DNA from: Eledone cirrhosa
Lineage: Eukaryota
Length of the DNA stretch: 64,000 nt
Direction of reading: 5' to 3'
Assembly (NCBI GenBank): GCA_964016885.1
Contig: OZ024743.1
Span: 238,080,001 to 238,144,000, forward strand
The translations under genes and the position numbers were made by a program. The number at the start of each line of letters is the position of its first letter. The first letter of the stretch is position 1. The notes below the pieces were generated by a model. The model worked only from the letters and a program-made list of their open reading frames with translations. It did not search any database and was not told the origin of the DNA. Below, piece by piece: positions 10,225 to 53,170 of this stretch.

Positions 10225-10430
10225 ATAGCAGTAAAGTATCGGACAACATGCTTTTCAGCATAGTCACGACCTTTTACGTTCTGTGTTCAAATCCCGGAAG
10301 GTTAGCTTTGCCTTTCATCCTTACAGGATCGATAAAATAAAGTACCAGTAACTAACTGGGATCGATTTAATCGACTTTCTCCTTCCCAAAACATTGTTGG
10401 CCTTGTGCCTAAATTAGAAACCAATAATTA
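10225..10430 (+). mobile_element. tRNA-derived SINE (older variant)
   Basis: GTTCAAATCC, CTTTGCCTTTCATCCTTACAGGATCGATAAAATAAAGTACCAG and GGCCTTGTGCCTAAATTAGAAACCAATAATTA. Confidence 0.8.
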
Positions 10431-20717: not shown

Positions 20718-20842
<125 letters not shown>

Positions 20843-21752: not shown

Positions 21753-21916
<164 letters not shown>

Positions 21917-22515
21917 ACACATGTTTTCAACCTTCCAGCTTACTCTTTCTCATAACCTTACTCTTTCTTGATGAAGGACTAACATCCAATATGTTGAATC
22001 ATTCTTCATCCTTTTCCTGTAAGCATGAAACTAATAAGACTTTGTGTAATTGTATTTTTGTGTCTGTTTCCTTTTTTGAAATCTTGAATTATATATATTC
22101 AATAAAGAAACAAGATTATTGTTGAAATTAAATCATATATTAATTTTACATATGTTTCACTTACAATAAACAAAGTCAAGTGAGAGATATGTAAATAATA
22201 CATTGACAGAGAGTTATACTTGTCAGCTCTACAGTAATGAAATCTATATATAAATTTCTGCGATTCTGTCTCAACAGGTAGAGAGGAGTAGTTTGACTAC
22301 CTCATACTACTCCTCTCTCTTTATGTTTGCTGTGTGAATGTATGTGTGTGTAAAAAGAAGGAAGGAGATGGTGAAAAAACGTGTGTTTCTGTAAATGTAT
22401 GTGTGGTTTGTGTAAATGTATGTGTGTGTTTGTGTGAATGTATGTGTGTGTTTGTGTGAATGTATGTGTGTGTTTTATGTGAATGTATGTCCGTGAGTGT
22501 GTTTTTTTTTGTAAG

Positions 22516-22685
22516 TATGTCTGTGTTTGCGTATTTATATATTTATACATGTCTGTGTTTGCGTATTTATATATTTATACATGTCTGTGTTTGCGTATTT
22601 ATATATTTATACATGTCTGTGTTTGCGTATTTATATATTTATACATGTCTGTGTTTGCGTATTTATATATTTATTTGCGTATTTA
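22516..22685. repeat. 32-bp minisatellite (~5 copies)
   Basis: TGTCTGTGTTTGCGTATTTATATATTTATACA repeated; only one copy in the left arm. Confidence 0.85.
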
Positions 22686-24570: not shown

Positions 24571-25744
<1,174 letters not shown>

Positions 25745-31811: not shown

Positions 31812-34800
31812 GAGACGGCTGTAACTAAGGCGGAGTAAGTTAGTTAAATTTTTATGAGTTATCGAAAGTTCTATATACTATTTTTTACAACGGTGTGTAG
31901 TTAAAGAACCCCTCATTCAAAGGAGGTGGTTTGTTAACTGTATCTCGCGCCCTTGAGGGCTAAATTTGCATTTATTTACAATCATACCCCCTAAATTTTG
32001 TTTTTAAAAAAAAATCGCGGACAAAAAATGTGTCCACAGGGAGGAACAGCGGGTTGTTCGGATGGTGGAACAGCCGATTCCATCCAATCACAAGGCAAAG
32101 TAAAAAAAGAGGAAAAACAGCAGCAGCAGCGACAGTGGTGGTGACAACAGCAGCAGCAACCACTGGAACAGTAGCAGCAGTAATGGAAATTACAGCGAAA
32201 ACTTCCCTGCGTTAGAAAAATCAAACACCCCCACCACCCCAATAACAACAGCAACAGCCATAATGAACCGAAGCAGCAACAACTATAAAAGCAGCAACAC
32301 AGAGAAAAAAAAAACACTTACGACGGTAACAAAGACAAAACTAGCGATGGGTCAACACAAATCAAAACAAACACATCTTTCGCTAAAGCGACAAACTATT
32401 TTGAACAAGTACACACCACCAATGAAGAGATAAAACAAGCAAAGGTCTTGGTTAAAAAGACCGGACACAGGGTAAGTTTCACCCGCCCAGCTGAGATAAT
32501 AAGAAACAAGCGTTTGTGTTCGGTCGGTTATCGCACGATCGTATAAAAATCGCGGCGATTCGAACAGGCAACGGAACCACAGGTCCAAAGAGCTATGGGT
32601 TCCGTCTGGGCACAGAAAACATACATAGCTTCGGGATCGAGGTATGGCACTGTGGATGTGCTCTTCGCTACACCAGAAGAAGCCAGAGCACACTCCATTG
32701 CGCCACTCCGCAGTGACGAAATCATAATGATGCCTACAAACTGCGGCCAGAGAGTCGTGAAGGTTCGAGTGGCCCAGGTTCTACCCTCAGGGGAGATGGC
32801 GTGGTTGACAGCGGCCGTCCTCGCTGACGTTGAGGATTCAACAACTATACTCAACGTCAAGCGAATAAGAGAGGAAAATTGGACAGGGTCGGAGATGGAG
32901 CTAATCATCCTAGCAAACCATGAGAACATTGAGGCCATCCCCGATGTAATAGACCTGGACGACGGCAGCCATCTACCCGTGACTATCGAAGGTAGGCGCC
33001 CAAGGTGTCATGGATGCGGTGACAAGACGCACCTTAAGGCATTCTGCCTCAAACTCACCAAAACAGACACGCGCCCACCCCTTCTCCCCACGCCGTGCCC
33101 CGCAACTGAAGCGGACAAACAAAGAAAGACCACAATGGCAGAAGAGAAATCACCATCCCCAACAAAAGCACCATCTCATCCACCACCCACAGAACCAATG
33201 GAAAGCATACCCCTTCCTGATATAGCTAAATCAGACAAGGAGTGCGATGAGGCCGAAGAATGGAGGACTATTCCAACAAAATAAAGGAAGAACTCCCTAC
33301 CCTTTCAGGCTAGTGGCCATCTATGCCCCAACAGGAGAAGGACGGCCTGAATTCTTCCGGTGTCTGGAGAACTTTCTTGGAACGTCCCGCTCTTTAGTGT
33401 TAGTGCGCGACTGGAACGGGATCTTAGATGCACGCTGGGATTGTGTGGGATTAGCAGATAGGGGAGGAGGGTGTAAAAGCCTCACAAACCTGCTCAGGCG
33501 TTTTCAGATGTCGGACAGGTACCAATTGGATTTACCGAATGTGCCAATGTGAACTTGGACAAACCGCATCGGGTCATCCAGATCATATCTAGATAGGGTA
33601 TTTTGTAGGGAAATAAATGGTATAGCATAGGCTGTCCACAATTCAAGATAGTTGGCTACACGGATCACAAATTTGTGATCTGTATGGTTGACTTAGATAG
33701 GCTTCATAGACAGGGACCCGGCTACTGGAAACTAAACGCGTCGTTAACAGCGTGCAAAGGTTACAGAGACCGGATTAGCAAATTGGTTAAGCGGGCATTG
33801 ACATGGGCCATCGTCAACAACAAATGGTGGTTTGCCCTGAAAAGAGCGATTAGAATAGAGTCCATTAGGTTTAGTAAAGCGCTAGTAACAGAGAAAAATA
33901 GAGCTGAAGGAAATCTAGTTAGCAAATTAGACGAGGCGCTTAGTAAAGGCATCGCGACCGACGTGCTTGCGCCGAAATTGGCTCTCGACCCATTTTTCAA
34001 CGCTAAGGACGAAGGATACGTTGCCAGAGCTAGAGTGCGTGCTCTCAGACACGAGCGGACGAAAGCCGTTCAATGGGCCCGGGTGGCGAAGGGCGTCGTG
34101 GCAACAAAGCCACGATCCGGTCTTTGGCGAACAACGACGGGCGCATGATACTCGATCCCGGCAGATGTGTGCGGCTTTTCAGCAGCACTTTGCTCAGGTG
34201 TTCGGGGGCAATGGCGGGCCGCATCGCGGAATGGACTTCAGTGCCTACCTCCACGGACTGCCGAGGTTCTCGGTCACTGAGGCGGAGTGACATCTGCTCT
34301 GTGGTGAGAGTGAACGGTCACCTTTCGGAACCGTTCAACATCATGCACTCGATCCACCAAGGATGTCCTCTCTCGTCCTTGTACGTATTAACTCTCGAGC
34401 CATTACTGCACAAACTGAAGACGCTGAGCGGTGATACCGCTTGAACCAGGATGCGGAAGAACAGTGTCAGCTTATGCAGGCAACATCACCGTAGTGGTGT
34501 CGAACGCCAAACACATCGAGGAAATCGACACCACACTAAGAGACTACGAGGTAGTGACAGGAGCAATGATCAACCAGGAAAAATCAGTAGGCTTGCAACT
34601 CGGCACCTGGGGAGGCAGGTGCAAGCCGTCCAACAGCGTTGCCCGTCACTGGACGGATGGACCGGTTAAATTGTTAGGGGTCCGGACCTAAATACGGACA
34701 AAAACTGAGAGGAGGTCACGAATAAGGTGATTTCTCTCACCCAGAAATGGGCCGAGGGGAAGCTATCTCTGAAAGGTCGAGCGGAGGTGGCGAATGCATA

Positions 34801-36044
34801 CATCGCGTCTGTCATCTACTACCGCCTGACCGTCGTGCCTTGTCCTAAGCCTAGCCTAACTGCACTGGAGAGTTTGCTCTTTCGCTTTTTGTGGAAAGGA
34901 CGCGCTCCGATTGTCAGGCGTTCCATCTGCTGTCAACACCCGCTACGCAGAGGGCTGGGCATGCTGCGGCTGTGGATGCGCAGACATGCGCTCAGGCTAC
35001 GACATCTCCACCTCTTCCTCGGCGGTGATCAGGTGTGGTCGCCCTTTGCTAGACACATGTTTCCCCAGCTTGTCTCCTTGGCGGAGCTGCAATCCTGGGT
35101 CAAGCAAAAACCGAGAGGCAGCGCTTGGAAACTGGAATGTCTTCAGGCGCTTACAGCCATGACCAGTGGAGCAATACAATCGATGGAAACTCCACCTTGG
35201 CGTTCTATAGAGGATTAGTGGAGGGAAAATGGCAACGACGTCCTTGGGGAGACTCTAGGCGTCGATGAAAACCAACTAGCCAATCTCTTTGGGAGAACAT
35301 TTGGGCCGGGGCCCATGGACAACTTCCAGAAATCCCTGGCCTGGCAATGCTACTGAGGAGCCTTGCCAGTTTGGGATAAACTCTACAGGCATGGAAGTGC
35401 CGTCAGCCGGGTTGTCTGAGATGAAACCCTCCCGCACGCACTCGTCCAGTGTCCGAGCATTGCTGACTTGTGGGTTTATGCCGAACACCTGCTGTCAGAT
35501 GTAGAACGGATCCGGCTATCACCTGAGTTCATCGTGAAAATTGCCCCGCCGTCTTTCTTTAGCCGAGAAGGGCAGGCAGTTTTTATTTGCCTGGTGGACA
35601 CCTCTGAAAGGGTTGAAGACGGGTACTTTCCTCTTCGGTGACGCCCTCATTAACTTTTTAAAGTTTCACCTGAAGAGTAAAATCAGGGTGGATAGGGAAG
35701 TGCTGACTTCCAGCCAGTTTGTTGAAAGGTGGGTGAGAGAGGCAAGAATGGCCTGTGTGAATAGGTCTACCCTGAGCGTGTGCCTGTAGCATTGTAGGAG
35801 GAAAACTGGAAGAGGGCATTTGCCCTAGCGGTCAGGGTAACCGTGGCTTTTTTTGTGGGCTTTCTCCACGAGCAACCCTCGGAGGTGTCCCCCCTATTGG
35901 GAATTTTTCATTGTTTCCTTTTGTCACACTCTGTTTTTGTTTTTTATTACATGCAGAAATGCCTATTTGTATTGTCCTGTGTTGTCCTTAATGTTATACT
36001 TTGTGTCAACCCTTGTGGTTAATAAAGAAAGCATTATTATTATT
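31812..36044 (+). mobile_element. Tx1-like non-LTR retrotransposon, copy 1 (two internal deletions)
   Basis: ORF1 32595-33284 with zinc knuckle CHGCGDKTHLKAFC; partial APE (YAPTG, DWNGILD, GYWKLN); partial RT (QGCPLS, YAGN); ends CCCTTGTGGTTAATAAAGAAAGC(ATT)n. Confidence 0.9.
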
Positions 36045-39000
36045 GGTCTGTTTGGAGGTCTTTTTTTCTCGCTCCCAGTAAGTCGTTTTATTTACCTGTT
36101 ATATTATTTGTTGTTAAATTGTTCTTGTTGTGTAGGGAAATAAGCCCTTGGACTTTACCCTGTGAAGGGGAAAGTATGATATTTGGGCCTTTTGGCCCAA
36201 ATATTTTAACAATATTTGAACATTTTACTTTTGAAAATAAAAAAAAATGAAAACATGGCTGAGCCATGCCCCCCCCCCCCCCCCCCCCCAGCAATATCTC
36301 TGCTGTCGTGTGACAACGGCGTAAAAGTTGAGAGGAGGGTTAGTGAAATTCATACAACAAACACCACAAACAACGTGAACAAAGACAACAACACTGAGAA
36401 CACTAAATTAAAAAAAATTACCACACTAACTACAACAATAACAGCGTTAACAATAATACAGACAACAGAAAAAAATGACAACAAATGCAACAACGATATT
36501 AACACCACTAACAAGAAAATAAACAACAACACCAACAACAACAATACAAATTGCACCGAAAACAACAACAATGGTGGCACCAAAAACACAACCAACTACA
36601 ACAGTGATAACAGCAACAACACCAACAACACCGTTTGTAGCAACAGCAACAGCACCAACAACAAGACCAGTAGCAGCAGTAGCGGCAGCAATAATGTTGC
36701 CGCTGAAAAAGGGGTCACTTCTTTCGCAGGTGTGGCCCGAAATATAGAGACAGTGCTAGACACGGAGGAGGAGATGGCAGTCACAAGAGCCATGGTGACA
36801 AGGAATGAATATAGAGTTTCCCTGAAACCTCCACCCGATTTCTTCAAAGACGAGCAGAGCAGCTGAGCACACTGACTTACTGCACCGTAAGCAAGATGTC
36901 ACATCAGGTGGAGAGAGCCATGGAGGCTCAAATCCAAAAGGCTTGGGGTATGTCTGGGCGCCAAAAACCCACATCACCCGAGGCAAAAAATACGCCACAG
37001 TAGACGTACATTTCGCCACCCGCCAAGAGGCGAAGTCTCACTCTTTGGAAACTCTAAAGAGTGAGGAGATGCTAATACAGACTGACCAGGAGTACACCGA
37101 GGCCATCCCAGATATCATAGACTTCGAAGAAGGACTCCAGCTCCCTATAAGCGTGGAGGGAAGGCGCCCAAAGTGCTTTCTCTGTGGGCAGAAGGGTCAC
37201 CTCAGGGCCTTCTGCCCGCAGAAGACAGCCAAGAAGAGGGCCCCTCCTTCCGACGCCGGATCCGCTGCTACCAAGAGCAGGGCAGGCAACAGAGGCAGAA
37301 GACCCTTCCATGGTAAATAGGAGGCCAACGCTCGTGGCCCCATACCAAGGCCACGGACAACTAAAGCAGCGGCAGCTGGCGGCAACACCAACAGTAGCAG
37401 TAGCCACACCGGCAGCGAAATCGCCGGAGCGGGCTCCACTACCACCACCAACAGCAGTGGAGCTCATACCCCTCCCAGACCCACGGAATCCGATATGGAG
37501 TATGAGGCAGGAGGGAAGTAGCAAATGGTGTGCCACAAAAAAAAAAAAATCCCTTAGCTTCACCCTCCAAAAGCGAAGGCAAACGAAGAGGGGTAAAAGC
37601 TGCAAGGAGACTTGCAGCAACACCACTACCATCACCATCACCATCACCACCACAAGCATCACCACCAACAACAACCACGCCACCACCAGCATCACCAAAA
37701 ACACCAACATCGCAAACACAACAAAACACACACACCCAACAGCAACAAGAAAACAGTAACAAAATCACCCCTTCCCTCAAAAAAGTACACAGCCATAAAC
37801 ATGGCAAATAAAGAACTCTTACAACATATAAAGCAGCACACAGACATCACAGAAAAAAACTACTACAGCCCATCAACACCAAGAACTCTCCCGACAAACA
37901 TAAACATCATTGAAATCAAAATAGAACATTACAAACTTTTAAAACAAAAATTCCCCAAATCAGTTGGAGACTCCAGAGGGTCGGTTACCAAGACGATATA
38001 CACCGACATCCTCTTGGAAACACCCATGACCAGCCAAAGGGATGGTTCTACTGTCCCTTCGCCACAAGATCAAGGTAAGTGATCCTTTCTCACTTAGCCT
38101 GTTTCTCATCCAACATGGCCGTACTTAGAATAGGCAGTATAAAAGTACGTGGCCTGGGGTAATCTTGGAAGCAGGGTGACCTGCTCAACGACCTCAGGTC
38201 ACTAAACATAGATCTGGTGGCCATCAGTGAGACCAGAATCTCCGAAGCACGAGCCTTCGCACCGATCTTCGGCGGCTACGATGTATACGCATCTCCCAGC
38301 CGTCCAGGATCGGGGGGAGGGCTTGCCGTGCTTTTTCGGAGAGGCTTGGATCTTCCTGGACTCAGAAGGTAATTCGGTGGTGCTGGACGTGACCGGCAGC
38401 GAAGGCAATGCTTTCAGGTTAGTAGCCGTCTACGCCCCCATAGGGGCAGGACGGACAGATTTCTTCAGACGTCTAGAGACCTTTCTTGGAAGGTCCCGCT
38501 CTTTAGAGTTAGTGGGCGACTGGAACGGTATCTTAGATGCACGCTGGGATTATGTGGGGCTAGTAGACAGGGCAGGAGGGTGTAAAAGCCTCAACAACCT
38601 GCTCAGACGTTTCGAACTGTCTGACAGGTATAGGCTGGATTATCTGAATGTGCTAATGTGGACATGGGCAAAACAGATCGGGTCATCCAGATCGTATTTA
38701 GATAGGGTATTCTGTAGGGAAACAGATAAGACTAGTGTAGGTTGTCCACAATTTAAAGTAGTCGACTACACGGACCACAAATTTGTGATCTGTGAAGTTG
38801 ACTTAGATAGACTCCATAGGCAATGGCCCAGCTGCTGGAAGCTGAACGCGCCGTTCCCGGCGCGCAAAGCTTACAGAGACCGGATTAGCGAATTAGTTAA
38901 GCGTGCGTTGACGGGTGCGATCGTCAACAACAGGTGGTGGTTTACCCTGAAAAGGGCTATTAGACTAGAATCGATAAGGTTTAGCAAAGGAGTAGTGATA

Positions 39001-41765
39001 AAGGTAAATAGAGTAGAGAGAGAGTTAGTTAGAAAGCTAGAAGAGGCGTTTGGGACAGGCATCGCAACCGACGTGCTTGCGGCGAGATTGGAACTCGACC
39101 AATTCTTCAACGCAAAGCATGAAGGCTGCGTTGTCAGAGCTAGAGCGCGTGCTCTAAGACACGAGGGGATGAAAGCCGTTCAATGGGCCCGGGTGGTCGA
39201 GGCGCGACGTGGCAACAAGTCCACGATTTCGTCTTTACCTGATCAAAACGGGAGCATGTTGCTCGAACCCGAGCAGATGTGTGCGGCTTTTCAACATCAC
39301 TTTGCTCAATTGTTCGGGAACGGCGGCGAGTCGGATCGGAGTATCAACTTGGGTGCATAACTCGACGGACTGCCGCGGCTCTTGACGACCGTAGCGCAGT
39401 GCTGCGAAAAGCCGATAACAGCAAGTGAAATACGGGAAGCGATGTCTGACTACACGAGGGGTAAATCGCCAGGTTTGGATGGTCTGCCCTACGAGCTTTA
39501 TGCGTACATGCCAGACTTGTTCGGCGACCTCATGGCAGATGTGTACTGCAACTGGCAGCAGAACGGGGGCATTCCCAGTTTTGTGAGCCGGGGAGCGGTG
39601 GCGCTGCTGAGAAAAGACCCGAACAAGGGGGACGTTGTAGACAACTTCAGACCCATAACTCTGCTAAACGCAGAGTTTAAGATATTGGCCAAGGTGTTAG
39701 CAAAGAGATTGGCGCTTGTCGTCGGTGATCTGGTGGGAGAGGCGCAGACATACACCATTCCGGACAGATTCATCCATGACAACCTCCATCTCATGCGATA
39801 CATCATAGAGAGGTTGGTTAAGGAACCTGGCATGGGTGGGGCCCTGATCAATTTGGATCAATCTAAAGCATTTGATAGGGTTGACCATCGGTACCTGGCT
39901 GCGGTCCGCGGCGCGGCCAGCTTCGGGCTCGTTTTTAGGAGCTGGATCGCTGCGATGCACAGCGACATCTGCTCGATTGTGAGGGTGAATGGTCACCTGT
40001 CGCAGCCTTTCAGCATCATGCGCTTGGTCCACCAGGGTTTCCCCCTCTCGTCCCTCTTGTACGTACTGGCCCTAGAGCCGTTCTTGCACAAGAGACGATG
40101 AGGGGTGTCCCACGCGCACTGGGATAAGAGACAACAAAGTTTTAGCCGACGACGTCACCGTGGTGGTGTCGAGCACGAAACACGTCCAGATGCTCGGCAC
40201 CGCTCTCAAGGAATACGAAGCGGTGACAGGAGCAAAGATAAACTAGGAAAAGTCCGTCGTCTTGCATCTCGGCACCTGAAGAGGCAAGTCCATGCCGTCC
40301 GACAGCGTCGTGGGGCTCTGGACGGAAAGCCGGTTAAATTGCTCAGGGTCTGGTTCGGCTCGGACCTCCAGATGGACAAAAAAAAGGAGCGAGGTGACGA
40401 GCAGGGTGGCCTCTCTCACCCAGAAATCGGCCGAGAGGAGGCTGTCTCTGAAAGGCCGGGCAGAGGTGGCGAATACGTACATCGCGTCCATCATCCGCTA
40501 CCAACTGACTTGTACCTTGTCCCCGCCCAACTCTGACCAAAATTGAGCGCCTTCTCTTCCGCTTTTTGTGGAAGGGACGTGCTCCCATGGGCAGACGATC
40601 CATTTGCTGTTAACACCTGTTGCGTGGAGGACTAGGCATGCCATGGCTGATGATGCGCAAACATGCGCTGAGGCTGCGACATCTCTGGTGTTTCCTTGAC
40701 GGGGAACAGGTGTGGTCACCGTTCGCCAGACACGCTTTTCCGCAGCTCATCTCCTTGACGGAGCTGCAGTCCTGGATCAGGAAAACACCGAGGGATAGCG
40801 CTTGGAAGATGGAATGTATCCAGGCGCTCAACGCCCCCTACCAGCTGGGCACTGATATCGGTGGAACATCGACCTTGGTGTTCTATAGAGGGCTAGTGGA
40901 GGGAAAGAGCGACGACTTTCTCGGGGAGACCCTAGGCGTCGAAGACGATCATCTGTTCGCTCTCTTCTAGAGAACTTTCAGACCGGGGCCTATGGACAAC
41001 TTCCAGAAATCCCTGGCCTGGCAGTGTTACCGGGGAGCGTTGCCGGTTCGGGATAAGCTCTACTGGCACGGAGGTGTTGTCAGCCGAGCCTGTCCAAGAT
41101 GCGCCCAGGGCGACGAAACCGTCCTGAACGCACTTGTTCAGTGCCCGAGGATTGCTGACTTGTGGAGCTATGTCGAAAAGCTGCTGTCGCGTGTAGGACG
41201 GATCCGGTTATCGATTGAGTCCATTGTGCAGATAGTCCCGCCGTCCTCCTTTAAGGAGGAGGAAGGACAGGCAGTTTTCATCTGCCTGGTGGCCATGGCG
41301 AAAGAGATTGTGTGGTGGACAAGGTTGAAAGGGTTGAAGATGTACACTTTCTTCTTCGGCCAATTCCTGATTAACTTTTTCAAGTTTCACTTGAAGAGGA
41401 AAATCAGGGTGGAGAGACAAGTGCTGTCTTTTAGTAAGTTTGTTGAAAGGTGGGTGAAAGTGGTGAGCCTGGTCCGAATGAACGGGCCCGCTCTGAGTAT
41501 GCGCCTGTAGACTGAGGAGTGGGAAAATTGATAGAGGGCGCTTGCCCTGGTAGTCAGGATGGCCGTGGTCTTTTTGTGTGACTCTCGGAGGTTTCCCCCT
41601 TTTTGAGGAATTTTTGTTGTTTGAATTTTTTTGATTTCTAGCCCGATTGTGTTATAACCTGTTTACATGACAAAAACACACTTTGTATCGTCCTGTACTG
41701 TTCTGTGTCGTCTCTAATGTTTTTCTTCGTGTTAGCCCTTGTGGCCAATAATGAAACCATTATTA
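36045..41765 (+). mobile_element. Tx1-like retrotransposon, copy 2 (near full length, frameshifted)
   Basis: ORF1 pieces 36216-38082 (N/T-rich, CFLCGQKGHLRAFC); ORF2 from ATG 38115 with APE, RT (GKSPGLDG, FRPITLLN, DQSKAFD) and C-terminal CPRC..ETV..ALVQCP; (ATT) tail. Confidence 0.92.
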
Positions 41766-44700
41766 CAACAATAAGAGCATCAGAAACACCACATTTGCTG
41801 CAGCAGCAGCAAAAACAAAGCGCTTATTGAATATTGATATTGATATTAGCGATAAAGACGAACAGTTGGCCAAAGCGTGGAGGCTAATTAAACGGGAGAA
41901 GTCCTGGGCAAACCTGACCATCCCGGACGAGGCAATAGCGGTCATGCAAAGGAGGACGGTGCTCTTTCGATGTATTTCGGTGCAGACACGAAAAGTGGAA
42001 CTTGCGAGCCAAGCAGAGGTAGAGGCTGCTTTGGAGTTCACCGGAAGTAACATAGAGTACAAAGCAAGAGGCAAACAGTTCGGTACCATCTCGGTACTGT
42101 TCAAAACCGAGGCCCTCGCTATTAAGCACTCGGTGACCCCCTGCAGAACGGAACGCATTATCATGCATCCGTCCTATATGGGTAAAAGGACAGTGAAGGT
42201 ACGCATTCCCAACATCCCACCAGGAATGAACATATGGTGGCTACTGGGATGCGTAATCGAGGAGGGGACAGACACTGCCCTCCTAGACATCAAAAGGACA
42301 GAGAGAGAGGACTGGTCCGGAATGGATTTGGAGATTCTTCTCCAAATGAAACCGGAAGATATGAATAACATCCCGGATTTTGCCCGCCTGCAGGATGGGA
42401 CAACAATCCAACTAATGATTGACGGAAGAAGGCCACGCTGCTTCGTCTGCGGGGAAGCAACGCATCTTCAAGCCTTCTGCCCTCAGCGCAAAAATGCAGG
42501 GGGTCGCAAACCTCCTTTGTTGCCAACGCCAGTGTCATCACGGAAAGCTGCACCACCACTACCACCAACATCAACATCAACAAAAACACGGACACCAACA
42601 TCAAAAGCAGCCGGATCACCACCAACACCAAAACCAATCCAAGGAGAAAACGAGGAAAGCTCTCCCACTCCCCCTACCCCCCAATTATACACATAGACAA
42701 AACAATAAACGCACACACAAACACAGAGACACTCACAGACACAGACCCGTTGTCTTCCAGCAGCGAAGATGAAGGAAAACCCAAAAGTGCAAAAAAACAG
42801 AGAAAACAGACAAAAACAAAAGGCCCAACAAAATACAAAAACACACACAACAAAAAATACAGACACCACTAACGCAAACACTTCCCCAATAACATCATCA
42901 CCAACAGCAACATCGACACCGCCTCCACAATCCCCGAAACGCAAACAACCTAAACAAACACAAGTACAAATAAACACACAAATACCTGAAATTGCAGACA
43001 CCACACCTACAACAAACATAGACATACCCGAAACAACACCACCAAAACCATCGCCACCACCTTCACCAAAACGAAAACAAATAAAACCACACCAACAAAA
43101 TGTTAAAAACTACGTGCTTGTCAGAAGGGCCAACGATAAACTGATGGCCCTCTTAGCGCGAAGCGAGGACATTCAAACAGAGGGGGAGATTTTTGAAATG
43201 AGCACATTTTGCGTGCCAGAAGATTTGCTTCTGGTCCGAATGTCACTCAATTCCTTCAAAGAAATTCGAGAGAGCTTTCCTCAAGACGTGGGAACTCCGA
43301 ATGTGAAACCCACATCAAGACTTTTAAAGGGGTTCCCAAAAGAAACCCCACCAACCATGGAGGTCGAACCACCCGACCTTCACAAGACCCGGGAGGTAAG
43401 TAAACCTTCCCTCTCTCTCTCTCTTAGCTTACCAATATGGCCATATTAAGAGTAGGCAGTTTAAATGTTCGCGGCCTGGGGTCACCCTGGAAGCAGGGTC
43501 GCTTGCTCAACGACCTCCGGTCGCTAGAAATGGATGTGATTGCCGTAAGCGAGACCAGAATTTCCGACACGCGCGCACTAGCCCCCATTTTCGACGACTA
43601 TCAGACCTTCGCATCTGTTAGCAGGCCGGGAATGGGGGGTGGGGTGGCAGTGCTGTTTAGGAAAGGACTGGATCTCGAGGTAAGGTCGATCTTCCGGGAC
43701 CCGGACGGTAAGTTGGTGGTCTTGGATGTGAGCAGTAGCGAAGGTGGTGCCTTTAGACTGCTGGCCGTCTACGCCCCTACAGGGGCCGGACGACCTGACT
43801 TCTTTAGGCGCCTGGAGACCTTTCTGGGTACGTCTCGCCCTTTACTGTTAGCGGGGGACTGGAATGGCAGGGATTGTGTGGGAGTAGCCGATAGGAGCGG
43901 GGGGTGCAAAAGCCTCAAGCACCTACTCAGCCAGTTCCAACTGTCTGACAGGTATCGACTAGATTTCGCCAATGTGCCAGTATGGACATGGACCAACCGA
44001 ATGGGGTCATCTAGATCGTATATAGACAGGATCTTCATTAGAAAAATAGATAGAAATAGTGTGGGCTGTCCACTTTTTAAAACGGTCGCCTATTCAGACC
44101 ACAAATTTGTGATCTGTACGGTCGACCTAAATAAAACGCGTAGGTTAGGACCGGGTTACTGGAAGCTGAACAGGTCAATTCCGGCACGTAAGGCTTACAG
44201 GGACCGAGTCAACAAGTTAGTTAAGCAAAAGTTGACAGGGGTAATCATCAACAACAGATGGTAGGGGGCTCTCAAAAGAGAGATTAGAGTAACTTCGATA
44301 GAGTTCAGCAAAGAACTAGCGTTAGAGAAAAATAGAAAGCAGGGGGAGTTGGTAGATAAGTTAGACGAGGCTATTTGTAGTGGCATCGCAACTGACGTGC
44401 TAGCGGCGAGAATGGCATTAGACCATTTTTTCAATGCCAAACATGAAGGTTGCATTGTCAGAGCTAAGGCGCGTGCGCTGAGAAACGAGGGAACTAAAGC
44501 TGTTCGATGGGCCCGCGTGGCGGAGGCGCAGCGTGGTAATAAAACCACAATTCGGTCTTTGGCGGACCGAAACGGACACGAGATAAGCGATTCCAAGCGG
44601 ATGTGTGAGGCCTTTCGCCAACACTTTGCTCGGTTGTTCAGGGAGAGTGGCGAGTCAGAGAGAGTAGCGGATTTCAGTCCCTACCTTGACAGCTTGCCGC

Positions 44701-47114
44701 GCATCTCGACGGTCGACGCTGAGCGCTGCGAAAGGCCGATTACTTCAGCCGAAATTCAGGACGCCCTTGTCGGCTGCATGAGGCGCAAGTCACCCGGTTT
44801 GGATGGCCTGCCCTACGAGCTTTACGTAAATATGCCAGACTTGTTCTCCGAACTCCTCGAAGCACTCTACTGCAACTGGCAGCAGAATGGGAGTATTCCC
44901 AGTTCTGTGAGCAGGTGAGTGGTGACGCTGATAAGGAAAGACGAGAACAAGAGGGATACATTAGACAACTTCAGGCCCATAACTCTGCTCAACACAGAGT
45001 TTAAGATTTTGGCCAAGGTGTTAGCAAAGAGATAGGCGCTTGTCGTCGAGGATTTGGTTGGGGAGGCGCAAACTTGCGCAATCCCAGCCAGGTCCATACA
45101 CAACAATCTCCACCTCATGCGATACATCATAGAGAGAGTAGGGTGTAAACCTGGCTTCGGTGGGGCACTGATCAATTTAGATCAATCGAAAGCATTCGAT
45201 AGGGTCGATCATCGGTACCTGGAGTTTGTCCTCAAAGCAGCTGGCTTCGGCCCTGTCTTTAGAAGCTGGATCGTTGCAATGCACAGCGGCACACGCTCGC
45301 TGGTCAAGGTTAATGGCCACCTCTCGGAACCATTTCGGCTCTCCCGATCGGTCCGTCAAGGGTTCCCTCTCTCTTCCCTTCTGTACGTATTGACTCTCGA
45401 GCCTTTACTGCGGAAGCTGGAGCTGTTGCAGGGCATCCCGCTCGAACCGGGACGTGGAAAGGCGGTGTCGGCTTATGCGGCCGACATCACCGTGATGGTG
45501 TCGAACACCTCAGAAATCGAGGTGGTCGGCACCTTATTGAAGGAATATGAAAGGTTGACAGGAGCCAAACTTAACCCGGAAAAGTCGGTGGGCTTGCAGC
45601 TCGGAACCTGGAGAGGCAAGCCCATGCCGTCCAACAGCGTCGTGGGGCGCTGGACGGACGGACCGGTAAAGTTGCTCGGAGTTTGGTTCGGACCTGACCT
45701 CCAGGTGAAAAAGAATTGGGACGAGGTAACGAGCAGAGTAGCCAGTCTCACCCAAAAATGGGCTGGGAGGAAGCTATCACTGAAAGGTCGCGCGGAGGTG
45801 GCGAATGCGTACATCGCGTCCGTCATCTACTACCGCCTAACCGTCGTGCCTTGCCCCCGTCCGCGCCTCGTCAAGTTGGAACGGCTCCTCTTCAAATTCT
45901 TGTGGAGGGGACAAGTTCCGTTGGTGAGGCGGTCCATCTGCTGCCAGCACCCTCTACGCGGAGGGCTGGGCATGCCGTGGCTAATGATGCGCAGACATGC
46001 GTTGAGGCTGCGACATCTCCAGATATTCTGCCTCAATGGTGAACAGGTGTGGTCGCCGTTTATCAGACGGGCCTTTCCGCAGCTCATTTCTTTGACTGAG
46101 CTGCAGTCCTGGGTCAAGAAGAGACCGAGACTGGGTGACTGGCACCTGGAATGTTGCCAGGCTCTCACTGCCCTCTACCAAGCTGGCAATGCAATCAGTG
46201 GAACTTCCACTCTCGAGTTCTATAGAGGATTCGTGGTGGGCAAGTGCGATGACGCACTCGGAGAAGCTTTGGGCCTCGACGAAGTCGAACTGACCAGTCT
46301 GTACCGGAGGACTTTTGAGCCGGGGACGATGGACAATTTCCAGAAATCCCTCGCTTGGCAGTGCTACCGGGAGGCACTGCCGGTTCGGGATAAACTCTAC
46401 AGGCACGGAAGTGCTGTCAGACGGACCTGCCCAAGATGCGCACAGAACGACGAAACCGTTCTGCACGCACTTGTCCAATGTCCGTGCATTACTGACTTGT
46501 GGAGTTATGACGAACAGCTACTGTCGCGTGTGGAACGAATCCGGCTATCGAGCCGCCACCTTCCTTAGGTCAGGAAGAGCAGGAAATTTTCCTCTGTCTG
46601 GTGGCAGTTGCGAAAGAGATTATATGGTGGACCAGGTTGAAAGGACTAAAGACAGACACTTTTCTCTTCGGCCAATCCCTCTTCAACTTCTTCAAGTTTC
46701 ACCTGGAAAGGAGGGTGAGGGTGGAGAGAGAAGTGCTTCCCCCCAATACATTTGCTAAAAGGTGGGTGAATGTGGCGAGAATGGTTCGTGTGAATGGGCC
46801 TGCTCTGACCATGCGCCTATAGGCTGGCTAACTTGAGGAGAGGGGTGCTCTCCTGGGTGCCCTAGAAGCGCAGGGTGGTTCAGGATTGGTGGGGTACCCG
46901 AATCACCCCAGGGTCGTCCACCCCTATCGGGGAATTTATTTTGTTGTATTTATGCATAGTTTATTTTATATTTTTATATTTTCATTGTTAAATTAATCTT
47001 GCCATTGTGCACTTTTACTCGACCTTATTGTAAACCCCCACTATCCCTGTCTTTGTATTGTCCCCTACATGTCGGCCCTTGTGGCTAATAAATGAAATCA
47101 TTATTATTATTATT
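41766..47114 (+). mobile_element. Tx1-like retrotransposon, copy 3 (most divergent, 5'-truncated)
   Basis: ORF1 41827-43449 (CFVCGEATHLQAFC); ORF2 43437-46822 (SLNVRGL, SETR, GDWN, SDH; QGFPLS, YAAD; CCHC finger) with stops; (ATT)n tail. Confidence 0.92.
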
Positions 47115-50100
47115 GAATGCTATGGTTGACGGAGGCTCGGCTCTGTAAATTTTGACCGCTATAACAATTGTAAATTGTTTAAAACTTTAACCAACTTGTA
47201 GACAAAAACACCCTCCTCCTTGTGAGAGGGGTCTTTCTGCCCGTTATTTGGCCCTTCGGGGTTATATAACCGCCTATTGGGGTTTTGTGCCCAATATTTA
47301 TTTTAAACAAAAAAACAACATGGCTACGAAAAAGAATTTTCATAGGTCACTCCCACTCATTCCGTCTTCTTCTTCCTCAATCGTCACTACAGCAGAGAGA
47401 AGATTGTCTCTCTCCCTCCCCTCTCTAAATGTGTCTCTCTCCCTCCCTTCTCTTTCGCAAGCGACGCCAGAAAAGAAAAATCACGTGCAAAGCGAGCAAG
47501 ATTTCTCCACGACGACGACGACAACGACGAAACAGGTGTGCGGGAAATACGAAAACCCATTTCATTCGTCTGACGTCAGGAATAATAGCAGTAGCAGCCG
47601 TAATAACAGCAGCAACAGTGACAAGGAAAACAACAGTAGCAGCCGCAACAGCATCAGCAGCAGCATAAACAACAACAGCATTAGCAGCAACAACAACAGC
47701 AGCAGCAGCAACAACAACAACAACCACAGCAACAGCGGCGGGGGCAGTAGTCGTAGTACCTGCAGCAACAACAAAAGTAACAGCAGCTCTGACGACAACA
47801 ACAACAACAACAGCAGCAAAGAAAAACCAATCTCGTTTGCAGGTATCGCAAAGAACCTGGAAACCATCCTCATAACAAATGAGGAATTAGAGGAAGCGAA
47901 GAAGATGGTGACAAAAACTGGACACCGAGCAATCTGCAAGGCAGCGGAAAATTTTTTCGAAACCCAACAGCACTGTACGGTCACGTACCGTACAGTAAGT
48001 ACAAAATCCCGTAGGGTTGAAAGAGCCACAGAAGCTCAAATACAAAAAGCCTGGGGGTCTGTGTGGCAGCGGAAAACGCACATCACCCGAGGCAAGAAAT
48101 ATGCCACAGTAGACGTACTTTTTGCCACACCCCAGGAGGCAAAGGCTCAATCCTTAGTGACCCTAAGGAGCGAGGAAATAGTGTTGGTGCCCTCCTACTG
48201 GGGGCAAAAAATTGTGATGGTCAAACTGACCCCCCCCCCCCCCCCGATGGGCCATTCTTGGCTGGCCGCGTCTGTCCTCGTCGGAATCGAGGACAAAACA
48301 ACTGTACTGCAAGTACAGAAAAAAGTAAGAGAAGTTTGGGTCGGCACCTCCATTGAGATGTTAATCCAAACCAACCAGGAGTGCATCGAAGCTATCCCGG
48401 ATGTGATAGACTTCGATAACGGCACTCAACTGCCCATAAGTGTTGAGGGCAAACGCCCGAAATGCTTTCGCTGTGGATCGAAGACTCACCTCAGGGCCTT
48501 CTGCAACGAGAAGACCCTGAGAAAGGAGAAAACCCCCCTCCTTCCGAAACCGGCTCCACGGCTCCAGCAACAGGACAAGCGGCAACCAGGAACGATAGGT
48601 CCGTGGCACCCATACCCACGCCACGGAAATCAAAAACAGCAGCAGCAGTGGAAGGATTAACAACAACAACAACAGCAATACCAAATGCAGCTGCAACAGA
48701 GACTCCAGGGCAAACATCACCAACAACAACAAGTGAAAGTGTGGAGCTGGTACCCCTCCCCGACCTCACAGAATCAGACATGGAGTGTGAGGTGGGAGAG
48801 GGATGGCAAAAGGTCGTAAGAAGGCACAAACGCAGAAGCAGCGCATCGTCGCCTTCGAAAAGGGAGGAAAGAAATGAAAAAAGGGTAAAGGCTACTGCAA
48901 AGAGACTCACAGCAGCAACACCACCAACACCATCACCACCCACACTAGCACCACCATCACCACCGGCGACAACCCTACCGCCAACAACACCTTCAACACC
49001 ACCACCACAAGCACCAACATCGCAAACACAACAACAAAACACACACACCCAGCAACAACGACAAGAAAATAGCAGAACCACACCCCTCCCCCAGAAAAAC
49101 AATGCACGGCAATAAATACACACAACAAGAAACTAGTGACTTACATAATTGAACACACAGACATTTCACAACACGACTACATAATACCAGCACCAATCAA
49201 AACGCCAACTAACATAAGACTGCTAAAAATAGCACAGAAACAATACACAAACATTAAAACGAAATTCCCCAACGCAGTTGGTGATTTCAGAGACCTAGGA
49301 GGGACCCTCAACCGAAGAGTATATTGGGACATACTCATAGAAGAGCCGACGGCCAGCCGAAGGGACGATTCAACGGTCCCTTCACCAGACGATCAAGTGA
49401 AAAGGGATGGAAAAACCATCCCTCCTCTACGAAAAGTACGGTAAGTGGTCTTTCCCATCTTTTCCACTCTATTTTAAACATGACCTCACTCAGAATAGGC
49501 AGCATAAATGCGCGTGGCTTGGGGTCGTCATGGAAGCAGGGTCACCTGCTCAACGACCTCAGGTCACTAAACATAGATGTAGTGGCCATCAGCGAGACCA
49601 GAATCTCCGAAGCACGGGCCTTCGCACCGATCTTCGGCGGCTACGAAGTGTACGCATCTCCCAGCCGTCCTGGATCAGGGGAGGAGTTGCTGTGCTTTTT
49701 CAGAGAAGTTTGGATCTCGCCATACCGGCCATCTTCCTGGACCCAGAGGGTAAGTTGGTGGTGCTGGACGTGACCAGCGGAGACGTGCAAGCTTTCAGGC
49801 TAGTGGCCGTCTATGCCCGACAGGAGCAGGACGGCCTGATTTCTTCCGGCGTCTGGAGACCTTTCTTGGAACGTCCCGCTCTTTAGTGTTAGTGGGCGAC
49901 TGGAACGAGATCTTAGATGCACGCTGGGACTGTGTGGGATTAGCAGATAGGGGTGGAGGGTGCAAGAGCTTCACCAACCTGCTCAGGCGTTTTGAACTGT
50001 CTGACAGGCACCGATTGGATTTCCCGAATGTGCCAATGTGGACTTGGACAAATCGCATAGGGTCATCCAGATAATATCTAGATAGAGTATTTTGTAGGGA

Positions 50101-53100
50101 AATAGATAGGTCTAGCATAGGCTGTCCACAATTCAAGATAGTCAGCTACAGGGACCACAAATTCGTGATCTGTGTGCTTGACTTAGATAGGCTTCATAGA
50201 CGATACCCGGCTACTGGAAGCTAAACGCGTCCTTACCAGCGCGCAAGGCCTACAGAGACCGGATTAGCGAACTAGTTAAGCGGGCGTTGACGGGGGACAT
50301 CGTCAACAACAAGTGGTGGTTTGCTCTGAAAAGAGCAATTAGAATAGAATCGATTAGGTTCAGTAAGGCTTTAGCAATAGAGAAAAATAGAGCAGAGGGA
50401 GAACTAGTTAGAAAATTAAAACGAGGCGCTTAGCAAAGGCATTGCGACCGACGTGCTTGCGGCGAAATTGGCCCTTGACCAATTCTTCAATGCAAAGCAC
50501 GAAGGCTGCGTTGTCAGAGCTAGGGTGCGTGCTCTCAGACACGAGGGGACGAAAGCCGTTCAATGGGTCCGAGTGGCGGAGGAGCGTCGTGGCAACAAAG
50601 CCACGATCCGGTCTTTGGTGGACCACGACGGGCGCATGCTACTCGATCCCGGGCAAATGTGTGAAGCTTTTCAGCGATACTTCGCTCAGCTGTTCGGGGG
50701 CAGTGGTGGACAGGGTCGAGGGATGGACTTTAGTGTCTACTTCGACGGACTGCCACGGCTCTCGGCCACTGAGGCGGAGTGTTGCGAAAAGCCGATAACA
50801 GCCGCTGAAGTAAGGGAGGCAATGACTGGCTGCACAAGGGGTAAATCGCCTGGTTTGGATGGTCTGCCATATGAACTTTACGTACAGATGCCAGACTTGT
50901 TCGGAGGCCTCTTGGCGGACGTCTACTGCAACTGGCAACAGAACGGGAGTATTCCCAGTTCTGTGAGCCGAGGAGCGGTGGCACTGCTGAGAAAGGATCC
51001 GAACAAGGGGGATAACATAGATAATTTCCGGCCCATAACTCTGCTAAACACAGAGTTCAAGATTTTGGCCAAGGTGCTAGCAAAGAGGTTGGCGCTTGTC
51101 GTTGGTGGTCTGGTGAGAGAGGCGCAGACATGCGCCATTCCCGACAGATCCATCCACGACAACCTCCACCTCATGCGATACATCGTAGAGAGGGTAGCTA
51201 GGGAACATGGCACGGGTGGGTCCTTGATCAATTTAGATCAGTCGAAAGCTTTCGATAGGGTAGACCATCGTTACCTAGCGGCAGGCCTGAGGGCGGCTGG
51301 ATTTGGGCCCGTCTTCAGAGGTTGGATCGCTGCCATGCACAGCGACATTTGCTCTGTGGTGAGAGTGAACGGTCACCTTTCGGAAGCGTTCAAGATCATG
51401 CGCTCGGTCCGCCAAGGATGTCCTCTCTCGTCCCTCTTGTACGTATTGACTCTCGAGCCATTACTGCACAAACTAGAGACGTTGAGGGGCGTCCCGCGCG
51501 AACTAGGATGCGGAAGATCCGTGTCAGCATATGCGGACGATGTCACCGTAGTGGTGTCGAACGCCAAACACATCGAGGCGATCGGCACTACACTAAGAGA
51601 ATACGAAGCGGTGACAGGAGCAATGATCAACCAGGAAAAGTCAGTGGGCCTGCAGCTCGGCACCTGGAGAGGCAGGTCCATGCCGTCCAACAGCGTCGTT
51701 GGACGCTGGACGGACGGACCGGTTAAATTGCTAGGGGTCTGGTTCGGTCCGGACCTCCAGACGGACAAAAACTGGGACGAGGTGACGAGCAGGGTGGCTT
51801 CTCTCACCCAGAAATGGGCGGAGAGGAAGCTATCCCTGAAAGATCGAGCGGAGGTGGCTAACACGTACATCGCGTCTGTCATCTGTTACCGCCTGACCGT
51901 CGTACCTTGTCCTAAGCCCCGCCTGACTGCGCTGGAGCGTTTGCTCTTTCGCTTTTTGTGGAAGGGACGCGCTCCGATGGTCAGGCGGTCCATCTGCTGT
52001 CAACACCCGCTACGTGGAGGGCTGGGAATGCCGTGGCTGATGATGCGCAGACACGCGCTCAGGCTACGACATCTCCACCTCTTCCTCGACGGTGATCAGG
52101 TGTGGTCGCCGTTTGCTAGACACGTATTTCCCCAGCTCGTTTCCTTGACGGAGTTGCAGTCCTGGGTCAAGCGAAGACCGAGAGGGAGCGCCTGGAGACT
52201 GGAATGTCTTCAGGCGCTCACAGCCCTCGACCAATCGGGAAATGTGATCGGTGGAAACTCCACCTCGGCGTTCTATAGAGGATTAGTGGAGGGGAAGAGC
52301 GACGACGTACTTGGGGAAACTCTAGGCGTCGACGAAAATCAACTAGCCAATCTCTTCGGAAGAACTTTCGGGCCAGGGCCTATGGACAACTTCCAGAAAT
52401 CTCTGGCCTGGCAGTGCTACCGAGGAGCCTTGCCAGTTCGGGATAAACTCTACAGGCATGGAGGTGCCGTCAGCCGGGCATGTCCGAGATGCGCGCAGGG
52501 CGACGAAACCGTCCTGCACGCACTCGTCCAGTGTCCGAAAATTGCTGACTTTGGGTTTATATCGAACACCTGCTGTCGCGTGTAGGACGGATCCGGCTAT
52601 CATCTGAGTCCATCGTGAGGATTACTCCGCCCTCCTCCTTTAGCCGGGAAGGGCAGGCAGTTTTTATCTGTCTGGTGGCCATGGCGAAAGAGATAGTATG
52701 GTGGACACGTTTGAAAGGGCTGAAGACGAGCACTTACCTCTTCGGTGATGCCCTGATTGCCTTTTTCAAATTTCATTTGAAAAGGAAAATCAGAGTAGAG
52801 AGGGAAGTGCTCTCTTCCCAGCATTTTGTTGAAAGATGGGTGAGAGAAGCAAGAATGGCCCGAGTGAATGGGCCTACTCTGAGTATATATCTGTAAATTA
52901 AAGGTGGAAAACTGGGAGAGGGCACTTGCCTTGGTGGTCAGGGTCACTGTGGCCTTTTACTGGGCTTTCTCCACAAATGTCCCTCCGAAGTCTCCCCTCT
53001 ATTGGGGAATTTTTCATTGTTATTTTTTGTTACATCCTCTGTTTTTGTTTTTTACACGCCCATTTGTACCGTATTGTATTGTCCTGCACTGTCCTTAATG

Positions 53101-53136
53101 TCTACTTTATGTAAACCCTTGTGGTTAAAAAAGAAA

Positions 53137-53170
<34 letters not shown>
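47115..53170 (+). mobile_element. Tx1-like retrotransposon, copy 4 (best preserved)
   Basis: ORF1 ~47320-49444 (S/N-rich, CFRCGSKTHLRAFC); ORF2 49480-52896 with a 710-aa open stretch (QGCPLS, YADD, CPRCAQGDETVLHALVQCP); frameshifts in APE; longest (ATT)n tail. Confidence 0.93.
50453..52585 (+). CDS. Reverse transcriptase + zinc-finger portion of Tx1-like ORF2
   Basis: Open 710-aa frame with non-LTR RT motifs including SAYADDV; part of a frameshifted ORF2. Confidence 0.85.
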   Translation: MLAAKLALDQFFNAKHEGCVVRARVRALRHEGTKAVQWVRVAEERRGNKATIRSLVDHDGRMLLDPGQMCEAFQRYFAQLFGGSGGQGRGMDFSVYFDGLPRLSATEAECCEKPITAAEVREAMTGCTRGKSPGLDGLPYELYVQMPDLFGGLLADVYCNWQQNGSIPSSVSRGAVALLRKDPNKGDNIDNFRPITLLNTEFKILAKVLAKRLALVVGGLVREAQTCAIPDRSIHDNLHLMRYIVERVAREHGTGGSLINLDQSKAFDRVDHRYLAAGLRAAGFGPVFRGWIAAMHSDICSVVRVNGHLSEAFKIMRSVRQGCPLSSLLYVLTLEPLLHKLETLRGVPRELGCGRSVSAYADDVTVVVSNAKHIEAIGTTLREYEAVTGAMINQEKSVGLQLGTWRGRSMPSNSVVGRWTDGPVKLLGVWFGPDLQTDKNWDEVTSRVASLTQKWAERKLSLKDRAEVANTYIASVICYRLTVVPCPKPRLTALERLLFRFLWKGRAPMVRRSICCQHPLRGGLGMPWLMMRRHALRLRHLHLFLDGDQVWSPFARHVFPQLVSLTELQSWVKRRPRGSAWRLECLQALTALDQSGNVIGGNSTSAFYRGLVEGKSDDVLGETLGVDENQLANLFGRTFGPGPMDNFQKSLAWQCYRGALPVRDKLYRHGGAVSRACPRCAQGDETVLHALVQCPKIADFGFISNTCCRV

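What the first reader, a model, noticed from the sequence alone, without database searches (positions are those of the whole stretch)
38071..49500. Conserved GGTAAGT splice donor at the Tx1-like ORF1/ORF2 junction; splicing to the first downstream AG fuses ORF1 to ORF2 in frame in all three intact copies
Seen: copies 2, 3 and 4 have otherwise unalignable junctions, yet each has G|GTAAGT about 40 nt before the ORF2 ATG, followed by a pyrimidine tract. ORF2 is in the -1 frame relative to ORF1 in all three. Removing GT..first AG gives an in-frame fusion each time. Copy 2, 38075-38097 (23 nt): QDQ-A-CFSSN-MAVLRIG. Copy 3, 43396-43427 (32 nt): TRE-LTN-MAILRVG. Copy 4, 49441-49493 (53 nt): RKV-R-IGSINARGL. 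The ORF1 frames are supported by mutual protein homology. Known: L1/Tx1 ORF2 is normally made by reinitiation from an unspliced bicistronic RNA. Inference: these elements may use a micro-intron to make an ORF1-ORF2 fusion, or keep a U1 snRNP site for another purpose. Caveats: 23-32 nt is below usual metazoan intron size, and three in-frame outcomes by chance is roughly 1 in 27.
Basis: partly seen in the sequence, partly recalled or inferred. Interest (0 to 1): 0.8.

Follow-up and report, generated by a model that had tools for sequence, protein, structure and literature searches.

The report
LINE keeps splice donor after ORF1
A group of jumping genes (Tx1-like LINE retrotransposons) keeps a splice-donor signal where its first gene ends, in at least five families of this genome and in relatives from another source; it does not match a conserved intron that would fuse the two genes, and it likely lets the cell's splicing machinery cut out the second gene to make a first-gene-only RNA.

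Summary
The three G|GTAAGT sites and the three in-frame joins are in the window as written, but the fusion does not survive family-level testing. Copy 2's acceptor is private (0 of 29 other copies); its family's usual first AG gives an out-of-frame join. Family 3 is mostly 30 nt with ORF2 in ORF1's frame (21 of 30), and its sister subfamilies lack the acceptor. First-AG joins are in frame in 4 of 10 lineages, about chance. No intron-less copy was found (fusion join in 0 of 453 family-4 copies). The donor itself is real: G|GTRAGT sits at the ORF1 stop in five families (67-83% ORF2 identity), in three different codon phases, with the A/G wobble at +3, and ranks first or second among about 300-380 GTs per element. 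Relatives with about 41% ORF2 identity, in a host-contaminated MAG, carry AAG|GTAAGT after the ORF1 stop, where fusion is impossible. Best reading: a selected U1-type donor at the structural/enzyme boundary, likely used as in plant Ty1/copia elements to make ORF1-only RNA, with unspliced RNA making ORF2 and transposing. No RNA evidence of its use was obtained.

The parts
36045..41758 (+). Copy 2: degenerate full-length Tx1-like LINE (family 2), between (ATT)n runs
38074..38080 (+). G|GTAAGT donor motif, phase 1 of ORF1 (ends Gly-Lys-stop; TGA 38080-38082); 40 nt before ORF2 ATG
   Evidence: present in 28 of 30 family loci
38081..38114 (+). Pyrimidine-rich spacer; AG at 38096-38097 is private to this copy
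   Evidence: 0 of 29 other copies have it
38115..38117 (+). ORF2 ATG with A at -3
36078..36083 (+). Second donor-like GTAAGT about 35 nt inside the 5' end of copy 2
   Evidence: similar 5'-UTR motifs in family 5 and group B; not followed up in RNA
41766..47099 (+). Copy 3: 5'-truncated, degenerate Tx1-like LINE (family 3)
43395..43401 (+). G|GTAAGT donor motif, phase 0 of ORF1; 41 nt before ATG here, 39 in the usual copy
   Evidence: present in 29 of 30 loci
43402..43436 (+). Pyrimidine spacer with CT repeat; its TAG (43425-43427) is the ORF1 stop in the usual 30-nt form and is absent from sister subfamilies
43437..43439 (+). ORF2 ATG
47115..53138 (+). Copy 4: full-length, degenerate Tx1-like LINE (family 4), followed by (ATT)n tail 53139-53170
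49440..49446 (+). G|GTAAGT donor motif, phase 2; its TAA (49442-49444) is the ORF1 stop; 39 nt before ATG
   Evidence: present in 29 of 30 loci
49480..49493 (+).
32547..36032 (+). Copy 1: same group, but the ORF1 end, junction and EN start are deleted near 33290, so it cannot be scored

Best explanation
These Tx1-like LINEs keep a G|GTRAGT splice-donor motif at the end of ORF1, and it is likely a selected U1 snRNP site that would let part of the RNA splice out the ORF2 start to a downstream acceptor and become an ORF1-only message, while the unspliced RNA likely makes ORF2 from its own AUG and is the form that gets copied. Shown: the motif, its position at the ORF1 stop and upstream of the ORF2 ATG, its independence of codon phase, the +3 A/G wobble, its rank, its presence in distant relatives, the lack of a conserved near acceptor and the lack of intron-less copies in the searches made. 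Inferred: U1 binding; actual splicing; the acceptor, which would be free to vary because any downstream AG removes the ORF2 start; a second role of bound U1 in protecting full-length RNA, as in Arabidopsis EVD; reinitiation at the ORF2 AUG.
For: Motif at -37 to -47 from the ATG in families 2-6 and sister subfamilies, in phases 0, 1 and 2, so protein sequence cannot explain it. Family 6 has G|GTGAGT in 23 of 23 loci, the change a 5' splice site tolerates (consensus recalled). It ranks 1st in 7 and 2nd in 2 of the 9 elements that carry it, among 298-383 GTs each (recalled matrix; 10 elements scored, L267 lacks it). Group B relatives (40-43% ORF2 identity, sister clade with SH-aLRT 100 in a quick tree) have AAG|GTAAGT 13 nt before the ATG and after the ORF1 stop in 72 of 72 junction occurrences (9 distinct sequences, overlapping loci of one MAG). 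Group B also has donor and acceptor motifs in both UTRs, the 3'-UTR donor switching between GTAAGT and GTGAGT, and a 3'-UTR acceptor ranks 1st or 2nd in all 4 group B elements scored. In family 4 the top acceptor is in the 3' UTR. ORF2 ATG with A at -3 is kept in 9 of 9 own-genome lineages shown. Precedent: Ty1/copia donor at the gag boundary makes a GAG-only RNA and U1 there blocks premature termination (PMC5580714, sections 6 and 8 read).
Against: No spliced RNA was seen. Run X4 (kind not on record; 3'-biased) has contigs that run unspliced through both junctions tested (48097-49506, depth 78; 43298-43478, depth 10), and no listed joint starts at a donor (15 of 423 joints shown; 15 of 16). 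No strong acceptor is conserved across the five families: the best shared AGs score a mean of 3.6 (+1841) and 2.2 (+415), and families 5 and 6 have no 3'-UTR acceptor. One group B subfamily (L267) lacks the motif. 0 of 8 distant L1/Tx1-like elements have a donor within 60 nt of the ORF2 start. GGTAAGT also arises from Gly-Lys codons at EN +271 in families 2, 3 and 4. In human L1 a conserved donor is thought to be kept for a RUNX3 site, not for splicing (PMC5860796, section 10). A bicistronic RNA already favours ORF1, so the need for an ORF1-only RNA is unclear.
Confidence: 0.45

Rival explanations
1. Splicing-independent U1 site: U1 binds but no intron is removed; it supports elongation or stability or blocks premature polyadenylation along an intron-less 6-kb RNA.
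For: No conserved acceptor; AG-poor spacer; donor-like motifs also just inside the 5' end in copy 2, family 5 and group B; unspliced contigs in X4; U1's protective role in EVD (PMC5580714, section 8).
Against: Families 4 (L213), 5, 6 and L243 have no AATAAA or ATTAAA in ORF2 to protect; group B has acceptor motifs paired with its UTR donors; protection alone does not need the site to sit exactly between the ORF1 end and the ORF2 ATG, though that is the only mid-element non-coding gap.
Confidence: 0.27
2. The motif only looks like a donor: it is a DNA element (factor site or internal promoter for ORF2) or part of a translation-reinitiation signal with the pyrimidine tract.
For: Near-constant 37-47 nt distance to the ATG and about 80% pyrimidine spacer in this genome; human L1 precedent of a donor inside a RUNX3 site (PMC5860796, section 10); L172 begins 4-5 nt before the motif.
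Against: Group B keeps the motif at -13 with no pyrimidine tract; the pattern of fixed and variable positions is that of a 5' splice site; only 1 of 87 loci picked without an upstream requirement starts within 110 nt of the ATG.
Confidence: 0.15
3. One reading: a micro-intron removed to the first AG makes an ORF1-ORF2 fusion protein.
For: In-frame join in families 3, 4, 4-sister and most of 5a; families 3 and 6 have an acceptor-like YAG before the ATG, the top acceptor in those elements; one of 150 library proteins (P0203) is an ORF1-ORF2 fusion of unknown origin.
Against: Out of frame in family 2 (24 of 28 donor-bearing loci), family 6 (23 of 23), young family 5b (5 of 6) and two family-3 sisters; impossible in group B. 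Three family-3 copies counted in frame carry an extra base that puts them out. Intron-less copies: none among 6 non-GT family-4 hits of 453, 0 hits in family 3, 3 hits in family 6 and 4 in family 2, all point changes or small deletions, whereas spliced human L1s that keep ORF2 are about 2% of full-length copies (PMC5860796, section 7). Introns under about 30 nt are generally absent from animals (PMC13644364, start of abstract in listing).
Confidence: 0.05
4. Neutral inheritance: the motif is an ancestral stop-codon context (Gly-Lys-stop) carried along without function.
For: The motif contains or adjoins a stop; the five families share ancestry; same heptamer from Gly-Lys codons in EN; loss in L267.
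Against: Phase differs among lineages; six invariant positions against 26% and 11.5% invariance at 4-fold sites gives roughly 3e-4 and 2e-6 if sites are independent (rough); in group B the motif lies outside ORF1.
Confidence: 0.08

Closest known systems
Plant Ty1/copia EVD and Drosophila copia gag-only splicing (Oberlin 2017, PMC5580714; abstract and sections 6, 8 read)
   Same: Conserved U1-type donor near the boundary of structural and enzyme coding regions; donor better conserved and more predictive than acceptor; genomic copies keep the intron; unspliced RNA is the major form.
   Different: LTR elements with one gag-pol ORF; acceptor position conserved and spliced RNA shown. Here a two-ORF LINE, no conserved acceptor, no RNA evidence.
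Mammalian L1: ORF2 by termination-reinitiation over a 63-nt spacer; spliced products SpORF2 and SpIREs (PMC5972666 passages; PMC2896524 passages; PMC5860796 abstract and sections 7, 10)
   Same: EN-RT-CCHC ORF2 (best PDB match is L1 ORF2p, E 1.8e-51); short inter-ORF spacer; own ORF2 AUG.
   Different: The L1 donors in the passages read lie in the 5' UTR, and that splicing is treated as a dead end; no donor at the ORF1 stop was described in what I read.
Tx1 clade, microsatellite-targeting members such as Kibi and Koshi (Kojima 2015, PMC4494074; passages read)
   Same: Two ORFs, CCHC knuckle in ORF1, insertion at microsatellites, head-to-tail piles.
   Different: Tails here are (ATT)n and (TCTA)n; no junction donor mentioned in the passages read.
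SART1 UAAUG translational coupling (via PMC5972666 passage)
   Same: LINE solution to expressing ORF2 from a bicistronic RNA.
   Different: Overlapping stop-start and a downstream structure; here stop and start are mostly 9-45 nt apart.

Membership tests
Tx1 clade LINE | ORF2 with APE endonuclease, RT and C-terminal zinc finger | tested here: met
   Pfam Exo_endo_phos, RVT_1, zf-RVT; intact 1134-1148 aa ORF2 in other copies
Tx1 clade LINE | Separate ORF1 with CCHC knuckle | tested here: met
   C-x2-C-x4-H-x4-C about 1 kb before ATG
Tx1 clade LINE | Target preference for a repeat (many members) | tested here: met
   3' ends run into (ATT)n in families 2-4 and mostly (TCTA)n in 5-6; 5' flanks match where seen
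Tx1 clade LINE | RT phylogeny groups with named Tx1 references | not testable with these tools
   No named Repbase Tx1 held; the quick tree has only unnamed or gene-model neighbours, so 'Tx1-like' is kept
Major-spliceosome 5' splice site | Match to U1 pairing consensus with tolerated +3 purine change | tested here: met
   6-9 of 11 matches plus wobbles in 12 of 12 junctions scored (consensus recalled)
Major-spliceosome 5' splice site | Used in RNA or bound by U1 | tested here: inconclusive
   No run on record as RNA; X4 contigs unspliced, rare forms dropped by assembly
Fusion-making micro-intron | Conserved acceptor | tested here: not met
Fusion-making micro-intron | Conserved in-frame join | tested here: not met
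   4 of 10 lineages
Fusion-making micro-intron | Intron-less retrocopies | tested here: not met
EVD/copia-type structural-only splicing | Conserved donor at structural/enzyme boundary | tested here: met
EVD/copia-type structural-only splicing | Conserved acceptor position | tested here: not met
   3'-UTR acceptor only in group B and family 4 group
EVD/copia-type structural-only splicing | Short spliced RNA enriched on polysomes; premature termination when U1 site is lost | not testable with these tools
   needs RNA and mutants

The most novel reading that the evidence does not exclude
This Tx1-like lineage independently evolved the copia strategy: ORF2 is treated as an optional intron, so host splicing from the ORF1-end donor sets the ORF1:ORF2 ratio, and the elements keep real introns (5' UTR, ORF2, 3' UTR) in their genomic copies because only unspliced RNA is copied.
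Probability: 0.35. Interest if true: 0.72.

Novelty: new variant of a known kind. Interest (0 to 1): 0.5.

Why it matters
How LINEs balance ORF1 and ORF2 is usually explained by translation alone, and splicing of LINE RNA is treated as host defence or accident. A donor kept across about 41% ORF2 identity, exactly at the ORF1 stop, points to a selected use of U1 or splicing in a LINE, parallel to copia. It gives a seven-base target for one clean experiment. It also warns that gene predictors can build false ORF1-ORF2 fusion models from such junctions.

Tried and rejected
Micro-intron fusion and 3n+2 rule: rejected. RNA: no RNA holder listed; two read layings gave contigs only; loose-end tables were cut (2802 and 135 rows not shown), so a distal splice cannot be excluded. 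Retrocopy patterns have blind spots: family 4 misses joins with T second; families 3 and 6 miss joins starting with G; family 2 misses both; whole-genome denominators exist only for family 4 (453); for the others at least 21, 24 and 30 donor-bearing occurrences are held in loci, a few fetched twice. Viral contigs: nothing. Rfam on 6 elements: 0 hits. CR1/L2-like loci L109, L112, L121 lack the motif (clade label recalled). Protein proxy for the motif in wider relatives: 32 of 150 representatives had an N-terminal extension, 36% F/L/S/P against 25% background; P0093 begins with a Val-Ser plus pyrimidine-coded run; too indirect to count. 5'-truncation hot spot at the donor: 1 of 87, not supported. 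The careful tree did not finish; the quick tree is used only for the sister relation. DIRS-1 paper PMC7192593 (passages) was not relevant. Alisch 2006 was not held and is cited through a review. Paper searches listed no report of a donor at a Tx1 ORF1/ORF2 junction; subscription journals and Repbase Reports are not searched, and no supplements were opened, so prior mention cannot be excluded. Look-ups in earlier findings gave nothing that bears on this.
Full report
Setting. The window lies in an unnamed 3.0-Gb genome (G000:C4). From about 32 to 53 kb it holds four head-to-tail, same-strand LINE copies separated by (ATT)n. ORF2 has APE endonuclease, RT and zf-RVT; the nearest solved relative is L1 ORF2p; ORF1 has a CCHC knuckle. 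The best-scoring homolog that carries a name is a gene model from Argonauta (67% over 41% of the query). All window copies are broken in ORF2; copy 1 has lost its junction.

Observation. To test whether they are family traits I took 30 loci per family. Family 2: 28 of 30 have the donor; the AG at 23 nt is in the window copy alone; 22 use the AG of codon 5 of ORF2, which with a phase-1 donor gives an immediate stop; 24 of 28 are out of frame, and the 4 in-frame cases rest on private changes. Family 3: 29 of 30 have the donor; lengths are 30 nt (21), 32 (4), 28 (2), 26 (2); in the 30-nt form ORF1 runs through the motif and stops at the very TAG taken as acceptor, in ORF2's frame. Its sister subfamilies keep the donor, end ORF1 Gly-Lys-stop and have no such AG. 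Family 4: 29 of 30; the TAA inside the motif is the ORF1 stop and the first AG is an Arg codon in ORF2, in frame.

More lineages. Searches not conditioned on the motif found family 5 (donor at -45 to -47, phase 2; 23 of 27 loci) and young family 6 (G|GTGAGT at -41, phase 1; 23 of 23). Family 6 would splice out of frame; family 5 is mixed. Lineage tally for first-AG fusion: in frame 3, 4, 4-sister, 5a; not in frame 2, two 3-sisters, 5b, 6, and group B: 4 of 10. One more sister copy (L222) was left out because its ORF1 frame is broken.

Retrocopies. If a spliced RNA made the fusion enzyme it should be copied often (cis preference, recalled; spliced human L1s are about 2% of full-length copies, PMC5860796 section 7). 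Of 453 family-4 copies with the 20 bases before the donor, 6 lack T at +2 and all 6 are point changes. Family 3 gave 0 hits, family 6 gave 3 and family 2 gave 4, none spliced. Blind spots are listed under Tried and rejected. An ORF1-only RNA could be copied only in trans, so this result counts against fusion but not against that model.

Another host. A genome-collection scan returned 39 loci from one MAG titled Arenicella that consists of tandem animal-type elements, presumably host DNA (inference). Their ORF2 is 40-43% identical to the families here, and they fall in the sister clade. In 72 of 72 junction occurrences (9 distinct sequences, overlapping loci) the ORF1 stop is followed directly by G|GTAAGT, 13 nt before the ATG, without a pyrimidine tract. 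Use of this donor cannot fuse the ORFs; it can only remove the ORF2 start. One divergent subfamily (L267, 48% to the others) lacks it. These elements also have a donor 17 nt after the ORF2 stop (GTAAGT or GTGAGT by subfamily) with an acceptor-like site 254-280 nt after the stop, and a 5'-UTR donor; all 27 spacing patterns kept the segment (the search pattern required the donor, so it could not find intron-less copies). Eight distant elements (26-31% identity) had no donor within 60 nt of the ORF2 start; L184 has G|GTGAGT at its ORF1 stop 98 nt upstream.

Is it selected? Across six lineages positions -1, +1, +2, +4, +5, +6 are invariant and +3 is A or G, while most flanking columns vary. Four-fold sites are invariant in 41 of 159 and 10 of 87 cases. 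The motif is in phases 0, 1 and 2 and outside ORF1 in group B, so it is held at the nucleotide level. It is the best or second-best donor in each of 9 elements that carry it, and in L147, L152, L165 it is the only GTRAGT in about 5 kb.

RNA. No run is on record as RNA. X4 is small and 3'-biased, hence possibly RNA (inference); its contigs bridge the family-4 and family-3 junctions unspliced and no listed joint starts at a donor. Contigs drop rare forms; this shows only that an unspliced form is present.

Mechanism. Shown: a conserved donor-type motif at the ORF1 stop; a conserved ORF2 ATG with A at -3 in this genome; no conserved near acceptor or frame. Inferred: ORF2 is made by reinitiation on unspliced RNA, as proposed for L1 (PMC5972666 passage); U1 binds the motif; a fraction splices to a downstream AG and yields ORF1-only RNA, and bound U1 may also protect the full-length RNA, the two roles shown for EVD (PMC5580714 section 8). 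The weak point is the acceptor: good 3'-UTR candidates exist in group B and family 4, none in families 5 and 6, and shared AGs inside ORF2 are modest. I give this 0.45, U1 without splicing 0.27, a look-alike DNA or translation signal 0.15, neutral 0.08, fusion 0.05.

Novelty. Eight paper searches listed no report of this motif in Tx1 elements; coverage is incomplete. The closest system is copia-type gag-only splicing, in a different class of element. Verdict: the fusion claim fails, but a narrower real feature remains; new variant of a known kind, interest 0.5.

Noticed in passing
L231-L269 (CAXXMW01 contigs): The matched contigs of a MAG titled uncultured Arenicella are long head-to-tail arrays of young animal-type Tx1-like LINEs with a period of about 6.5 kb; likely host contamination of a species-representative genome.
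   Followed up: partly
L243: +17 and about +267 after ORF2 stop; L267: +44 and about +187: Intron-like GT..AG segment in the 3' UTR of both group B subfamilies, and a 5'-UTR donor with an acceptor just before the ORF1 ATG in L243-type elements.
   Followed up: partly
window 36078-36083; L219 -2103; L213 5' end: Donor-like motifs 30-40 nt inside the 5' end of families 2, 5 and (weaker) 4.
   Followed up: no
L147-L176, L210-L227: Two target or tail types in one clade: (ATT)n for families 2-4, (TCTA)n for families 5-6, behind a shared 3' end; families 4-6 include many copies with intact ORF2.
   Followed up: partly
L172: Family-6 copy whose 5' end lies 4-5 nt before the donor.
   Followed up: partly
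window 49370-49440: The family-4 ORF1 end looks like a diverged tandem duplication of the family-2 pre-donor segment, with the donor kept on the second unit and the phase changed.
   Followed up: no
window 43707, 49749: GGTAAGT inside the endonuclease from Gly-Lys codons in families 2-4, absent in 5 and 6.
   Followed up: partly
P0203: A 1514-aa library protein with ORF1 knuckles joined in frame to an endonuclease lacking its Met; natural single ORF or gene model, origin unknown.
   Followed up: no
L183 3' end; L184 ORF1 stop: L183 ends next to U2-snRNA-like sequence (resemblance recalled, untested; Keno-like). L184 ends ORF1 with Gly-Glu-stop on a GGTGAGT motif.
   Followed up: no
window 7296-11210 vs 20831-25744: Several long inverted matches (92-99% identity, up to 2 kb) between these regions, suggesting nested elements with inverted repeats or an inverted duplication.
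   Followed up: no
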